Assembly (NCBI GenBank): GCA_050084515.1
Contig: CM114271.1
Span: 31,744,001-31,808,000 of the forward strand
From: Blasia pusilla
Lineage: Eukaryota
DNA length: 64,000 bases
Reading direction: 5' to 3'
Part shown: piece after piece, positions 27,247 to 32,909 of the stretch
How positions within the stretch are numbered: the first letter of the stretch is position 1
How the letters are laid out: each line of letters begins with the position of its first letter
Made by a program: the position numbers and the translations under genes
The notes under the pieces: model-generated
What the model was told of the DNA's origin: nothing
What the model saw: the letters and a program-made list of their open reading frames with translations, nothing else
The model's database searches: none

Positions 27247-27352
27247 CTCTCTCTCTCTCTCTCTCTCTCTCTCTCTCTCTCTCTCTCTCTCTCTCTCTCT
27301 CTCTCTCTCTCTCTCTCTCTCTCTCTCTCTCTCTCTCTCTCTCTCTCTCTCT
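27247..27352. repeat. (CT)n microsatellite flanking the LINE 5' end
   Basis: Pure dinucleotide run. Confidence 0.97.
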
Positions 27353-30300
27353 GTGGGTTCGCTCCGTAATTTGCGGACCGAGCCGCTCTGTCGTTTTTTA
27401 GTTTTTTGACTAGTTTCTTCAAATTTCAGACTGAAAAATCAAAATGGTCCTCATGGGTCACCCAATTTTTGCACAGGCGGATTCTACTGCCTTGGGCGAC
27501 CCTGTCTACCAAAGGAAAATACAGATTGAACAAGTTTTTGACACGATTTTGTAGTTCGACCTGTTTCTCTGTCTCTCTTCTTCTCAGTTCTCTGAGATTT
27601 TAGTCGGTAAAATCGCATTTGGGCTCATGGGTCAGGATATTTTTGCACAATCTGTATCTACATCCTTGGACGACCCTATCTGCCATGAGAAAGAATAGAC
27701 TGACTCAGATTTCAAATCAATTTCCATGCTCGACTTGTCTCCTTCTCCATAACTTCGAGTTCTCTTAGAGATGGTCCAACTATTCTGTCAAATTCCAACC
27801 CTGTTTTCTGAGTCTCCCTAGTTCATACCCTGCTCTCTACTCAGGGATCAAGAACTCCCGGCAAAAAAAATCGGGTGTACCTCCTGGGACGATCCTGCCT
27901 AACCATAGAACGGGCAAAAGCCAGGGATGTTGAGACGATTCTCAAGCTCTGACCTCCCTCTAACTCCATAGACGGGACTATGGTTTCTCTGGAGTAAAGC
28001 ACACCCTATATAATTTTTTTCCCCATTCCCACTGCTTGAGCACACAGACTAGTACATCGAGTGAACACTTTGCACCCATGACTACCCACAGAACAACCAG
28101 CGTTAGAAACCTCACCGGAGGAGGTCCAAGACACGACCAGTGTCAAGGATCTTTCCACAAGCAAACGAAGATCGGGCAAGTGGACGATCCGTGAGATCAA
28201 ATGGCTCACGGAGATTGATCGCACCAAACTCTCGCCACTATGTCAAGAAAAAATGAGGCGTGTGACAAGGAACAACTCCATGCGGTTGTCACACATTCAA
28301 CAGAGGTTATACCATATCTGGAAGTGGCATCCATCACCCATTTGCCGGTTCTCGAACTAGAAGGAAAATGGGAAAGCTTTCAGGCCAACCACATGTTGGC
28401 ATGGAATACAATGATGCGGCGACAAAAAAGAAGAGCAGCGAGATGGATGTCCAAGAAGGAATCAAACCTCCTCAAATGGACGGCTCGTAAAACAACTCTG
28501 GAATTAGAGCTGGTCGCTTTGAGGGTGAAAACATGCAATCAAGAAGGACCTGGTATGCCGCTTCAAAGAGGATAACACTCAGCTTGGGAAAGCAATGCAA
28601 GAGTACTTGTGTAACTAGGAACGACCACTCGCAAATCTGTTAGAACACTGGATGAAATAGTGGGCAAGCACACAACCACAACACAAATCACGGAGGTTGC
28701 AACACAGGTAGCCAAAGAGGTAGCAAAGAGAAGTAGATAGGGTCCTAGAAATCCGAGATAGGAAAACCAGAGAACTCAATTTAGTTATCATGGGACTACA
28801 CTTTTCCAAGGAAGAAAAGCGTAATTCAGTTTTGCAAGAGAAGGTCTTGAACTCCGGGGGTCACACCATGATCACCTTCACAGGGGATCGGACTTGGGAA
28901 AGGAACAGGGGACCGACCAACACCAATGTTGGTACAATTTGATCCCTCACAACGGGGACCAGCGATGGAAACGAGGTTGGCCATCCTCCCATGAGAAAGC
29001 GATCTGAAAGGATCGCTATCCGTATCTTCCCAGATCGACCACCAAGCAAAGAGCAACACTCCCTATTGAAAGGGAGAAGGTTTGGCTGCCCGCAACAATG
29101 GTCTTTGGAGTGAACTCAGGGAAGGAAAGGCCACGACACCAGTACCTAGGAAAAAAAATGTTGCACCAACACGACAAACAGGAGAGGCAATGAGCAAAAA
29201 CTCGGATTCCAACCAGGGAATTAGCAATTCTACAACTCGGAACCAGGACTTGGAGGTGACCAACCTACATGACAAGACCTCCCTATAGGGAATGGAGGAT
29301 GGGAAGGATATTACCAACCCATCCATTGTGATTTTTCACAATTGTGGAGGACCATTCTGGTCCAGAGGCAATGGCATTACATATCTGGGCACAAAATTGG
29401 ACCTTATCTTTTTTTCTGAAACACATGAACATGATTCCAACCGCATTCCCAACACAGAGGACTTCCAAGTTTTTGCTACCCACAACCCACTCACCAACAA
29501 CAAAAGCAAAGGACACAATGGCCTGGCATGCTTGGTAGCACCATGGTTACAACCTTTTATCTCCATAGCCAACATTGATGAGGAGAAACACTTCCTCTGG
29601 ATCAAGGTCAACAAAGAAGTGGGGTTACCGAAAGATCTCCTCATTGTTGTTTGCTACTTCAGTCCCACTGTGCTCAAAAGAGAATTCCCGTATGAGGCTC
29701 TCTCTACATCTATTGAGCACCACATGCACAGGGGAAATATCCTCCTGGTAGGAGATTTCAACGGGAGAACGGCCAACACTCAAGCTCCAATCTACATGTC
29801 AAAAAACACCAACATGGAAGGGATTGATACTCAGTCGGCTGATGGGTCTCTCAGAGAAGTATTCTTCCCACACATGCAAACAAGAACTCGGTGGACAAGG
29901 AAAAACAACCAATGGAGAGAAATTTCTCCAACTTTGCTCAACACATTGTTTGGTACTCGCCAATGGCATGGCTATGTGGCCACGTCGGGAGAGGTCGCAC
30001 TTCCATTGGACACTTTGACTCCAACAGAGAAACCTCGACATTAGTGGTTGACTACCTCATTGGGAAGTACATCAACTACCACATCTGGTTGCCAATGTGC
30101 GAGTCACACCGTTCTAGAATCGATCATGAACCACTCTACTTTGACATCATGGTCTCCAAAACCATCCTAGAGGTGCAGAAAGATTAACCCCGCCGACCAA
30201 ATGTCGATACACTTTCCTTCAGGAAAAGAAAGATGAACTCATTACACTCATCAACAAGGCTCTTAGAGTGCTCACCCACGTGAACACGATCGAAGTTCAA

Positions 30301-32812
30301 AGAACATCCTACATCAATGTTGCAGAAAAGTCCTACCTTTCCAACTGCCTGGAGGCAAACACATTAGATCCACTTCTACGTTCTTCTCCCAACCCTGGTT
30401 TGACAATTTGCAAAGAGAGGCCGCAGGAGCTGAATCACCCGCCGAGGGAGGATCCACACTCTCCACATACTCGATTGTTGCAGAAAACTTACAAACGATT
30501 GGTACGTGAGGAAGAAATACAAATACATTGCCATCAAGATCACGAGTTCTGTAAGCAGATGAAATACCAATCGGCCAAATTCTGGAGAATACTCAAGAAT
30601 AGACAGAACATCATTCCACTCCGGGATCTCAGATCTGGACCACATATGGTACCCAACTTTACCACTCCAACACGCCGCTCCCACCGACCCCTGGCCGAAT
30701 GGGCTTGAGGATCTACCGGACCTCTTCATCATTGACGATGTTACATCAGGAATCAAAAGGCTACATAACAAACTAGAGGATGGCTTGGGGTGCTAGGCTC
30801 AAATGTTCAAATTTGCAAGTGAGGCAATTGGCCCAACCCTCACGAGAATGTTCAATCTGCGGTTCAACAGGGCTTCCCACCGAATGGCAAATGAATACGA
30901 TCTACCCGCTCTTCAAGGTCAGAGACCCAATGATACCATCCAACTACTGTAATCGATCATGGTGAGCTCCTTCATGGCCAAGTTATGCAGACTCTATGCT
31001 GGAAAGGAAAATCAGCGAGTGGGTCAAGAAAAGAAGGTGCGAGCCAGGAGGACAAGCAGGTTTCCGACACTCACATAGCACCTGGATCACCTTCTCACAC
31101 TCCGGTACTGATTGAAGAAACTTCCAAGTCGAGAATTGGTCACAAGCCCGGTAAATTGTTTCTGCTGTTTTGTAGACTTCAAGAAGGTCTTTGACACAGT
31201 CCCAAGGGCGCTCCTTTGAAACGACTTGAAGAGTTGGGTGTCCCACCACAACAACTTACGATCAAGGTCTTATACGCTCAGGTGTTTGCACAAATCGCCA
31301 CTAAGAGGGGCAGATCTGAAACTTTATCTTCCAACACCGGAGTCAAACAAGGATGCCCCCTCTCACCTACATTGTTTGGGCTCTACATTGACGAACTTGA
31401 AGAGGTGCTTTTGGAGTGAATGGAGATCCACCAGAGCTAGCACACCGCCTCATCCCCTGCTCCTGTATGCATATGATATAGTTCTGATGTCTAGAAAAAG
31501 ACATGGGCTCCAACTTTACCTCGAATGCACTTTCAAGCTTATGCAACAAATCGGGCATGGAAGTCAACTTGCTGAAAACGAAGATAATCGTCTTTGGATC
31601 ACAGCTTCCTACGGTGCAGCAGTCACACACTTTCACCTTCAGCCAGGGAATGAGAAGGGAGATCATTGAGATTGTGGGTGAGTACATATACCTGGGGGTG
31701 CAACTCAAACCCAACAACCAATGGAGAGCCAATGGGAGTCGCAACAAGATCAATGCAGGCTTGAGGGGTCTACACCTGCTACAATCCAATTGCAGAAGAA
31801 TGGAACTGTGGCATATTCCATAGAAACTCCATCTCTTCAAAGCTCTGGTGATCCTAGCCACACTCTATGCATCTGAAGTGTGGGGCCCCAACTCCAAGGC
31901 TTGGCCCTAGGGCCTTGAGGCCCCCCAGAAACTCTTCATGCGTCAGAGTCTAGGCATTAGGAAAACCACTCCCCACGACATTCTATTGGCTGAGTTTGGG
32001 AAGGTACCAATGGAGATCCATGCTGTTAAAAATCTGATCACATTTCTCCAACACCTTGAGGATATCTGCGAGGACGATTCCCAATTGTCTATCCGCCAGG
32101 GCCTACGTGGTTTCAAAAAGTAGTGCCACCCTTGGGGCTAAAAATTGGTACTATGATTGCACGGAGTGACTCATGAAATGGGGAATATCCATCGGTGACC
32201 TGCCTATGGCCACCCACCATGACCTTGCTGAACAATTACACAACAATTACATTGCCATCAATGGGGCCGACACGGCGCCCCGGGAAAGCAGGGGGAATTC
32301 CTCTCACAAAAATGGTGAAAGAATGAGGCGCTACCACACCCTCATGAACAATCTGCAGATCCATGCAAAGCAAGCCTCCTACATCTCCCCCATTCCCACT
32401 AAGTTACGTCATACATTAGCGAGATTCAGATGTGGCTCTCGACCTGAAGATTGAGAAAGGAAAATTCTCACAGAAGAAAAGAGAGGACAGATTATGTAGA
32501 TTTTGCAACTCGGGGCTTGTTGATGATGAACATCACTACCTCTTCGACTGCACCTTTCACGATCACATTAGGCTTGACTTCCTGGATCTCTTTGTTCACC
32601 GAGCTCCCAGGGTCCTCCCGTTCATGACTAGGCAGAATCAGACTCAAATTGCTAAATTCTTGCATAGTTGTGTGAAGACCAGGGACACTCACCTGGCTCT
32701 GAGGACCCCTTAGGCCCTCGCTGGTGCTTGCTCTCTCTCCAAATTTGTTGTTAAGTGTCAAAACTAAGTCCCATGGCCCTGTGGGGTCCCCGTGGACAAT
32801 AAATCTATTCAT
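27353..32812 (+). mobile_element. Near full-length RTEX-like LINE (5' UTR, ORF1, ORF2 with APE endonuclease, RT and CCHC finger), frameshifted
   Basis: APE motifs HNCGG, FFSETH, LVGDFNGRT, VDYL and IDH. RT motifs SNY, QAGF, DFKKVFD, GVKQGCPLSPTLFGLYID and LLYAYDI. C-terminal LARFRCGS…EKG…RLCRFC…DEHH..FDC. ORF1 has a coiled coil and RELNLVIMG. 3' AATAAA followed by ATTCAT. Confidence 0.92.
29292..32713 (+). pseudogene. LINE ORF2 (endonuclease/reverse transcriptase), fragmented
   Basis: ORF-track pieces 29292-30044, 31216-31419, 31503-31823, 31938-32123 and 32432-32713 carry consecutive ORF2 motifs. Confidence 0.9.
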
Positions 32813-32909
32813 CTCTCTCTCTCTCTCTCTCTCTCTCTCTCTCTCTCTCTCTCTCTCTCTCTCTCTCTCTCTCTCTCTCTCTCTCTCTCTCTCTCTCTCT
32901 CTCTCTCTC
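32813..32909. repeat. (CT)n microsatellite flanking the LINE 3' end
   Basis: Pure dinucleotide run. Confidence 0.97.

What the first reader, a model, noticed from the sequence alone, without database searches (positions are those of the whole stretch)
27247..32909. RTEX-like LINE family apparently targeting (CT)n microsatellites
Seen: a 5.46-kb two-ORF LINE is bounded exactly by about 53 CT units on the 5' side and about 48 on the 3' side. A second copy (21674-21944) has the same context and polarity. A third (1589-1754) has an (ATTC)n tail and sits in a tract that is pyrimidine-rich on its sense strand, so CT is not the element's own tail. Known: microsatellite-specific LINEs exist in other clades (Waldo/Mino, Kibi/Koshi, Dong). 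Inference: a plant APE-type LINE with CT/polypyrimidine preference, which I do not know to be described; three copies is a small sample.
Basis: partly seen in the sequence, partly recalled or inferred. Interest (0 to 1): 0.72.

Follow-up and report, generated by a model that had tools for sequence, protein, structure and literature searches.

The report
Dead LINE copy inside CT microsatellite
A decayed jumping gene of the LINE type sits exactly inside a long CT repeat, and an older relative nearby does the same, which hints at a liking for such repeats that could not be tested genome-wide here.

Summary
A 5,459-bp LINE body (27353-32811, + strand) lies between perfect (CT)53 and (TC)49 arrays.

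It has an APE-like endonuclease, a reverse transcriptase and a C-terminal Cys/His motif, but these are split over many reading frames. "Two-ORF" is not shown.

Laid reads show a repeated family with a 5'-truncation depth gradient. The window copy carries many private changes.

The family's own tail is (ATTC)n, not CT. A 98.7%-identical 3' fragment (1605-1761, minus strand) ends in (ATTC)6 and sits in no microsatellite.

A diverged, 5'-truncated relative (21674-21944) abuts (TC)43 on its 5' side and a 16-17-nt pyrimidine run on its 3' side, in the same polarity.

Best reading: both elements integrated by target-primed reverse transcription into existing (CT)n·(GA)n arrays, with the GA strand as primer. 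A family-level bias is plausible, at about even odds. Strict Kibi-like specificity is contradicted by the third copy.

Every route to a genome-wide flank test failed: no genome is held, the read tool masked the repeat ends, and collection scans found nothing. The RTEX label could not be tested. (TC)n-targeting LINEs are already known in fish, so interest is moderate.

The parts
27247..27352 (+). 5' flanking microsatellite (CT)53, 100% pure
27353..32811 (+). Decayed near-full-length LINE body, 5,459 bp
   Evidence: The family's depth gradient covers the whole length.
27423..27703 (+). Two ~107-bp internal direct repeats in the 5' region (27423-27529 and 27597-27703), 71% identical
27964..29288 (+). 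Presumed ORF1 region: only short open pieces and no Pfam match at or above a curated score cut-off. ORF1 is not shown.
29364..30187 (+). APE-like endonuclease region of ORF2
   Evidence: Pfam Exo_endo_phos E 0.0026. tblastn with P0010 residues 9-144 and P0011 residues 2-255. 143 library hits with best E 6.5e-16.
30665..32066 (+). Reverse transcriptase region of ORF2, in several frames
   Evidence: RVT_1 E 4.5e-7 for 31195-31419; tblastn with P0010 and P0011
32441..32572 (+). C-terminal Cys/His motif (C-x2-C ... H-x4-C pattern read from the translation)
   Evidence: translation; 39% identity to P0010 residues 980-1023; weak zf-RVT hint, E 0.23
32714..32811 (+). 3' untranslated end with a terminal motif shared by all three copies (GTCCCATGG ... 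TGGNCAATAAATCNNTTCA). It ends in a single ATTC unit plus A.
   Evidence: No significant RNA fold.
32812..32909 (+). 3' flanking microsatellite (TC)49, 100% pure
21589..21673 (+). (TC)43 array abutting the 5' end of copy 2 (95% matches)
21674..21944 (+). Copy 2: 5'-truncated 3' end of a diverged relative
21945..21960 (+). 16-nt pyrimidine run (CCCTTTCCCTCTCTCC) directly 3' of copy 2
1605..1761 (-). Copy 3: last 157 bp of the same family, 98.7% identical to copy 1. It is inserted in a copia-type gag remnant.
   Evidence: Retrotran_gag_2 E 1.5e-4, below Pfam's cut-off.
1581..1609 (-). Tail of copy 3, read in sense as (ATTC)6-A-ATTC. The last ATTC may be target sequence.

Best explanation
27353-32811 is a dead, near-full-length copy of a repeated APE-type LINE. 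Its ORF2 holds an endonuclease, a reverse transcriptase and a C-terminal Cys/His motif, and its own tail is (ATTC)n.

It integrated by target-primed reverse transcription into an existing (CT)n·(GA)n microsatellite. The (GA)n bottom strand was nicked, and its 3' end primed cDNA synthesis close to the 3' end of the RNA. As a result only one ATTC unit separates the element from the array.

An older, 5'-truncated relative did the same 5.6 kb upstream, in the same polarity.

The lineage probably has a moderate, non-exclusive bias for polypurine (GA-rich) bottom strands. A likely cause is that a primer ending in GA or GAAT can pair with the (AUUC)n tail, and a (GA)n array offers such an end at every second base.

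Shown: the anatomy, the tail, the three junctions and the repeated family. Inferred: pre-existence of the arrays, the priming register, and any family-wide bias.
For: - The arrays and the exact junctions are in the sequence.
- EN, RT and the C-terminal motif are collinear with intact relative P0010.
- The family is repeated and 5'-truncated. In run X12 the summed depth is about 20 in the first bin and about 164 at 32485-32668. Only 77 of 3,966 laid reads are at least 99% alike.
- The tail is (ATTC)6 in copy 3, and copy 1 ends ATTCA before (TC)49.
- Copy 2 and copy 1 end at the same terminal motif, so both have complete 3' ends, as expected for ordinary target-primed insertion.
- Copy 2 has (TC)43 on its 5' side, which a 3' tail cannot explain.
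- The 3' flanks in sense begin TC (copy 1), TCC (copy 2) and ATTC (copy 3). Each matches part of the tail unit.
- Only 0.37% of window positions are followed by 16 of 16 pyrimidines; copies 1 and 2 both are.
- The flanks of the five arrays share no similarity, so the arrays are not parts of one repeat unit.
- A match between the first target base and the tail microsatellite is reported for RTE-clade LINEs (passages of PMC13295347).
Against: - There are only three 3' ends in the window, and the window was picked because of this pattern.
- Copy 3, the one most like copy 1, is in no microsatellite. Its flank is only 14 of 20 pyrimidines, a level reached by 11% of positions.
- The window is unusually rich in long CT arrays, with five of them all between 20.7 and 32.9 kb. 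A regional effect is therefore possible.
- Target-site duplications cannot be read inside a dinucleotide repeat.
- Each flanking array (53 and 49 units) is longer than the uninterrupted neighbours (about 33-45 units). A simple split of one ordinary array does not predict this.
- No genome-wide flank data were obtained.
Confidence: 0.5

Rival explanations
1. Coincidence in a CT-rich neighbourhood. The family inserts without regard to CT arrays, and two insertions happened to hit arrays because this stretch carries many of them.
For: Five long arrays lie within 12 kb. Copy 3 is outside any repeat. The finding was selected post hoc. If the family has on the order of 100 copies (my rough estimate), a few would hit arrays by chance.
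Against: Arrays are only 0.68% of the window, so two hits out of three has probability about 1.4e-4 by my arithmetic. The two elements are diverged relatives inserted independently, in the same polarity relative to CT.
Confidence: 0.25
2. Passive hotspot. (CT)n·(GA)n mirror repeats are structure-prone and nick-prone, so any LINE or other retroelement can use them. The preference then belongs to the DNA, not to this family's endonuclease or tail.
For: The polypurine·polypyrimidine arrays are long and perfect. That such mirror repeats form triplex structures and are fragile is recalled knowledge, not tested here. Passive accumulation near CA repeats is described for Waldo-A and Waldo-B (passage in PMC3812793).
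Against: Both elements keep complete 3' ends ending at the same motif. This fits ordinary endonuclease-dependent insertion better than break capture. The other two arrays (20703-20769 and 26716-26805) have no recognisable insertion: their flanks share no repeat, and ORFs of at least 70 aa between 18000 and 27250 had no Pfam hit (14 of the 18 were scanned).
Confidence: 0.15
3. The CT arrays were made by the element or by the assembly. Candidate routes are a variable (CT)n tail, reiterative copying by the reverse transcriptase, 5' and 3' transduction from a source locus that sits in a CT array, or a misjoin at the repeats.
For: Tail repeat numbers vary between copies: 1 unit in copy 1 against 6 in copy 3. 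The two arrays around copy 1 are nearly equal in length.
Against: A tail or slippage cannot make the 5' arrays of copy 1 and copy 2. No LINE 3' end lies upstream of any array. A misjoin beyond the arrays would not remove the element-to-CT junctions themselves. No ATTC tail follows the 3' array.
Confidence: 0.05
4. Strict microsatellite-specific LINE of the Kibi type, with essentially every copy inside (TC)n.
For: Copy 1 is flanked by CT on both sides and copy 2 on one side plus a short CT-rich run. Kibi shows that the principle exists (PMC3812793).
Against: Copy 3, 98.7% identical to copy 1 at its 3' end, sits in a copia gag remnant with no microsatellite. Copy 2 has no array on its 3' side.
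Confidence: 0.05

Closest known systems
Kibi (KibiDr1/2, KibiFr1, KibiTn1), the (TC)n-specific APE-type LINEs of fish. Passage in PMC3812793, which cites Kojima and Fujiwara 2004; that paper was not read.
   Same: An APE-type LINE found inside TC/CT dinucleotide arrays.
   Different: Kibi is reported as sequence-specific and from fish. I recall that it belongs to the Tx1 clade, and passages of PMC4640811 and PMC13295347 say site-specific APE LINEs are known only from Tx1 and R1. Here the host appears to be a land plant, the tail is (ATTC)n, one of the two near-identical copies lies outside any repeat, and the clade is undetermined.
RTE-clade LINEs with microsatellite-like tails and the 'Tn-TA' insertion signature (passages of PMC13295347)
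   Same: A simple-repeat (non-A) tail, with the first base of the target matching the tail repeat. This is a weak preference rather than a fixed site.
   Different: The element here is 5.5 kb, with a long 5' region and a C-terminal Cys/His motif. Its flanks are CT or pyrimidine runs, not a T-run followed by TA. Whether it belongs to the RTE group was not tested.
RTEX clade (Repbase class; six green-algal families, all with non-A simple-repeat tails, Table 3 of PMC3747384)
   Same: An APE-type LINE with a simple-repeat tail. One library relative, P0026, has an alanine- and arginine-rich composition that I read as algal-like; that reading is unverified.
Waldo/Mino (ACAY, AC), Koshi (TTC), Dong (TAA) and Togen (TG)n microsatellite-targeting LINEs (passages of PMC3812793 and PMC4640811)
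   Same: LINEs that interrupt microsatellites.
   Different: All are from animals, target other repeat units and belong to other clades (R1, Tx1, R4-like or NeSL-related). They are described as specific rather than merely biased.

Membership tests
APE-type non-LTR retrotransposon (LINE) | APE-like endonuclease N-terminal to a reverse transcriptase in one ORF2 | tested here: met
   Pfam Exo_endo_phos (E 0.0026, below cut-off) and RVT_1 (E 4.5e-7). Collinear tblastn with P0010, which carries both domains above cut-off.
APE-type non-LTR retrotransposon (LINE) | Family copies are mostly 5'-truncated and share the 3' end | tested here: met
   Depth rises from about 20 (first bin) to about 164 (32485-32668) in X12, and similarly in the other three runs. 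Copies 2 and 3 in the window are 5'-truncated.
APE-type non-LTR retrotransposon (LINE) | Target-site duplication flanking the insert | tested here: inconclusive
   The flanks of copies 1 and 2 are dinucleotide repeats, so no duplication can be delimited. Copy 3 has a possible 7-bp AAGAATT that overlaps element sequence.
Microsatellite-specific LINE (Kibi/Koshi/Waldo/Mino/Dong type) | Nearly all copies flanked on both sides by the same microsatellite | tested here: not met
   In the window, 1 of 3 copies has arrays on both sides, 1 of 3 has an array on the 5' side only, and 1 of 3 has none. The genome-wide count was not obtainable.
Microsatellite-specific LINE (Kibi/Koshi/Waldo/Mino/Dong type) | Membership of the Tx1 or R1 clade, where site-specific APE LINEs are reported | not testable with these tools
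   No named clade references were available. For relative P0010, the match to human L1 ORF2p (8c8j, E 4.7e-24) is hardly better than the match to R2 proteins (E 1.3e-20). This gives no clade call.
RTEX clade | RT domain groups with RTEX references in a phylogeny (definition recalled from Kapitonov et al. 2009, which was not read) | not testable with these tools
RTEX clade | Simple-repeat, non-poly(A) tail | tested here: met
   (ATTC)6 in copy 3. Table 3 of PMC3747384 lists 6 of 6 green-algal RTEX families with non-A repeats. This feature is not exclusive to RTEX.
L1 clade | Poly(A) tail | tested here: not met
   No A-run follows any of the three 3' ends.

The most novel reading that the evidence does not exclude
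A land-plant LINE lineage outside the Tx1 and R1 clades has a heritable, polarity-fixed preference for (CT)n·(GA)n arrays. The preference is shared by sub-lineages as diverged as copies 1 and 2. It arises because the polypurine strand serves both as nick site and as primer for an (AUUC)n-tailed RNA. This would be the first microsatellite-targeting LINE described in plants, and an independent origin of the (TC)n targeting seen in fish Kibi.
Probability: 0.3. Interest if true: 0.65.

Novelty: new member of a known kind. Interest (0 to 1): 0.4.

Why it matters
If the bias is real, target choice by tail-to-primer pairing could be studied in a plant LINE. It would also add an independent origin of (TC)n targeting outside the two clades where site-specific APE LINEs are reported (passages of PMC4640811 and PMC13295347).

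It would bear on how GA/CT microsatellites are interrupted and split in two. I recall that such repeats are common near plant genes.

If the bias is not real, this is an ordinary dead LINE that happened to land in a repeat.

Tried and rejected
- **Whole genome:** none is held for this window.
- **Laid reads:** I laid 27333-32831, leaving 20 bp of CT on each side, to count reads that run on into CT against reads that break at the junctions. The tool masked 27333-27364 and 32802-32831 and dropped the loose ends there (27 in one run), so no flank information came back.
- **Exact-pattern scans:** a 23-nt degenerate 3'-end motif found 0 matches in metagenome contigs, viral contigs and genome contigs.
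- **Related loci:** The search for related loci with the C-terminal piece gave one marginal 16-residue match, L001, which I did not pursue.
- **Protein searches meant to catch other copies:** the endonuclease piece against longer proteins gave none. The antisense frame across the 3' end, which would have read into other copies' flanks, gave none. The library therefore seems not to hold this genome's copies.
- **Atlas:** it gave no useful taxa.
- **Earlier findings of this scan:** nothing relevant.
- **RNA fold of the 3' ends:** not different from shuffles, with z -0.22 and +1.10.
- **Pfam on the ORF1 region and on ORFs between 18000 and 27250:** no family reached its curated score cut-off in the ORF1 region, and none matched between 18000 and 27250.
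- **Array flanks:** a search for shared sequence next to the five arrays found none.
- **Literature:** searches for a plant microsatellite-targeting LINE turned up none. These were word searches of open-access text only. Kojima and Fujiwara 2004 and Kapitonov et al. 2009 were not read.
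Full report
**What is there**

Tandem Repeats Finder reports (CT)53.0 at 27247-27352 and (TC)49.0 at 32812-32909, both with 100% matches. The sequence between them starts GTGGGTTCG at 27353. It ends ...AATAAATCTATTCA at 32811.

This 5,459-bp body is LINE-derived:
- A 251-aa open piece (29289-30044) matches Pfam Exo_endo_phos weakly (E 0.0026, below cut-off).
- A 74-aa piece (31195-31419) matches RVT_1 (E 4.5e-7).
- A search of 1.84 billion representative proteins with the endonuclease piece gave 143 hits at E up to 0.001. 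The best was 6.5e-16, at 30-35% identity.
- One hit, P0010 (1,073 aa), carries Exo_endo_phos at 2-227 and RVT_1 at 508-756. It aligns collinearly to the window from 29391 to 32572, in pieces that jump between frames.
- The C-terminal piece carries a C-x2-C ... H-x4-C pattern, 39% identical to P0010 residues 980-1023.

ORF2 is therefore endonuclease, reverse transcriptase and Cys/His motif, but in this copy it is broken many times. The longest + strand frame is 251 aa. The roughly 1.9 kb upstream of the endonuclease matched no Pfam family at or above its curated score cut-off.

**The family**

I laid raw reads of four runs labelled with the same organism on 27333-32831, at 90% likeness or more. 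The runs were two whole-genome and two Hi-C, with about 2 billion letters read from each.

- All 30 bins are covered in all four runs.
- In X12 the summed depth rises from about 20 (27333-27516) and 49 (27517-27700), through about 110-120 over the endonuclease, to about 164 (32485-32668). This is the 5'-truncation gradient of a LINE family.
- Of 3,966 laid X12 reads, 77 are at least 99% alike, 1,418 are 95-99% and 2,471 are 90-95%.
- At the 40 best-supported substitution sites shown (510 more were not shown), nearly all reads differ from the window copy.
- At the 12 indel sites shown (117 more were not shown), between about 50% and 96% of reads differ from the window copy.

So this copy is a decayed member whose frameshifts are largely private.

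Counting the reads that keep the window's letter at those 40 sites in X12 gives 46, about one per site. If that is the single-copy depth, the family has on the order of 100 3' ends and a few tens of 5' ends at 90% likeness or more. This is my own rough estimate. It is biased by how the sites were chosen, and no single-copy stretch was laid for calibration.

**Other copies in the window**

A motif scan finds only three 3' ends of this kind.

- **Copy 3** lies at 1605-1761 on the minus strand, not 1589-1754.
  - It matches the last 157 bp of copy 1 at 98.7%.
  - In sense it continues as (ATTC)6-A-ATTCTTCATCCTC.
  - It interrupts a copia-type gag remnant (Retrotran_gag_2, E 1.5e-4, below cut-off).
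  - It is in no microsatellite.
- **Copy 2** lies at 21674-21944 on the + strand.
  - It is a diverged relative: 37% amino-acid identity over 70 residues.
  - Nucleotide alignment over about 270 nt shows a conserved terminal motif, GTCCCATGG ... TGGNCAATAAATCNNTTCA.
  - It is 5'-truncated and its 5' end abuts (TC)43 (21589-21673, 95% matches).
  - Its 3' end is followed by (T)CCCTTTCCCTCTCTCC and then unrelated sequence.
- **Fragments at 6158-8306** are diverged reverse-transcriptase pieces with no 3' end. They say nothing about targets.

**Is CT the element's own tail?**

No. The near-identical copy 3 has an (ATTC)6 tail, and copy 1 has one ATTC unit plus A before the array. A tail also cannot explain the CT arrays on the 5' side of copies 1 and 2. 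No LINE 3' end precedes any array. The flanks of the five long arrays share no sequence with each other.

**More than chance?**

Long CT arrays cover 435 of 64,000 bp, or 0.68%. Under uniform insertion, two of three copies landing in arrays has probability about 1.4e-4 by my arithmetic. Only 0.37% of positions on either strand are followed by 16 of 16 pyrimidines, and copies 1 and 2 both are.

Several points weigh against this:
- The finding was picked because of the pattern.
- The window is unusual. It has five long arrays, all with CT on the + strand, all between 20.7 and 32.9 kb.
- The polarity agreement is only two of two.
- Copy 3's flank has 14 of 20 pyrimidines, which 11% of positions reach.

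**Mechanism**

Both array-embedded copies keep the complete 3' end, ending at the same motif. This fits ordinary target-primed reverse transcription rather than capture at a break.

In element orientation the arrays read CT, so the nicked and priming strand is (GA)n. The first flank bases are TC (copy 1), TCC (copy 2) and ATTC (copy 3). The primers would then have ended ...GA, ...GGA and ...GAAT, and each can pair with part of an (AUUC)n tail. A (GA)n array offers such an end at every second base. That could enrich insertions there even without a repeat-specific endonuclease.

A link between the first target base and the tail microsatellite is reported for RTE-clade LINEs (passages of PMC13295347). 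The priming register and any endonuclease preference are inferences here.

One feature stays unexplained. The flanking arrays (53 and 49 units) are each longer than the intact neighbours (about 33-45 units). Possible reasons are a split of a roughly 100-unit array, growth after insertion, or duplication of a whole array by widely staggered nicks. Target-site duplications cannot be read inside the repeat.

**What could not be done**

The decisive test is the flank composition of all family 3' ends, and every route to it failed:
- No genome is held.
- The read tool masked 27333-27364 and 32802-32831 and dropped the loose ends there.
- Exact-motif scans of metagenome, viral and prokaryote collections found nothing.
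- A protein-guided scan gave one marginal hit.
- Protein searches designed to pick up other copies found none.
- Earlier notes of this scan held nothing relevant.

**Comparison with what is known**

- Passages of PMC3812793 list the APE-type LINEs that insert specifically in microsatellites. Among them is Kibi in (TC)n of zebrafish and pufferfishes.
- Passages of PMC4640811 and PMC13295347 state that site-specific APE LINEs are known from the Tx1 and R1 clades. They add (TG)n-specific Togen and some HERO families, which are among the restriction-like-endonuclease LINE lineages (NeSL-related and HERO).
- Table 3 of PMC3747384 lists six green-algal RTEX families, all with non-A simple-repeat tails.

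The element shares a simple-repeat tail with RTE and RTEX, but membership needs an RT tree with named references, which I could not build. For P0010, the solved L1 ORF2p (E 4.7e-24) scores hardly better than R2 proteins (E 1.3e-20). No poly(A) tail is present. An L1-type element is therefore unlikely, but the clade stays open.

My word searches found no plant LINE described as microsatellite-targeting. They cover open-access text only, and the supplements of these papers were not opened.

That the host is a plant rests on a plant-style LRR stretch (LRR_1, E 7.2e-5) and a copia gag remnant. The organism name is coded.

**Verdict**

The reading "inserted into existing CT arrays, and CT is not the tail" is well supported. 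"The family prefers CT or polypurine targets" is plausible, at about even odds, but untested. Strict specificity is contradicted by copy 3. The clade label is untested. Because (TC)n-targeting LINEs are already known in animals, the finding is at most a new case in a new host and perhaps a new clade.

Noticed in passing
window 20703-20769, 21600-21673, 26716-26805, 27247-27352, 32812-32909: All five long CT arrays have CT on the + strand and lie within 12.2 kb. The rest of the 64-kb window has only (AG)14 at 58443-58470. Such clustering in one orientation may reflect a transcribed unit or a local process.
   Followed up: partly
window 26806-27246: The 441-bp spacer between (CT)45 and (CT)53 starts with CTTGCCT. 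The same 7-mer recurs 3 nt before its end (27237-27243), followed by AAA and the next array. This could be chance or the scar of another insertion into one larger array.
   Followed up: no
window 6158-8306 (+) and 8242-8859 (-): There is a patchwork of diverged reverse-transcriptase fragments of the same superfamily. Two pieces cover the same RT segment, and 7275-8291 is 76% identical in DNA to copy 1. They sit next to a minus-strand RT fragment of a different LINE lineage.
   Followed up: partly
window 27623/29268 (joint seen in reads): A few reads in all four runs (1, 1, 3 and 3) join 27623 to 29268, skipping 1,644 bp of the 5' region. This suggests deletion derivatives of the family that lack the presumed ORF1 region.
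   Followed up: no
window 32729-32759: Many reads (32 in X13, 139 in X11) match only from 32759 to the 3' end. Upstream of that they carry a T-rich sequence that resembles a diverged version of the same 3' UTR. This is probably a sub-family, or a short non-autonomous element sharing the last ~50 nt.
   Followed up: no
window 27423-27529 and 27597-27703: Two ~107-bp direct repeats, 71% identical, lie in the 5' region of the LINE. This may be a repeated promoter or 5' UTR unit.
   Followed up: no
window 668-893 and 25567-25715: A 41-bp tandem repeat (5.5 copies, 93% matches) and a 22-bp tandem repeat (6.8 copies, 74% matches). Neither is related to the LINE.
   Followed up: no
window 1401-1900: Copy 3 interrupts a copia-type gag reading frame. 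The frame continues on both sides of the insert and ends in a CCHC-like motif (CYTCREKGH).
   Followed up: partly
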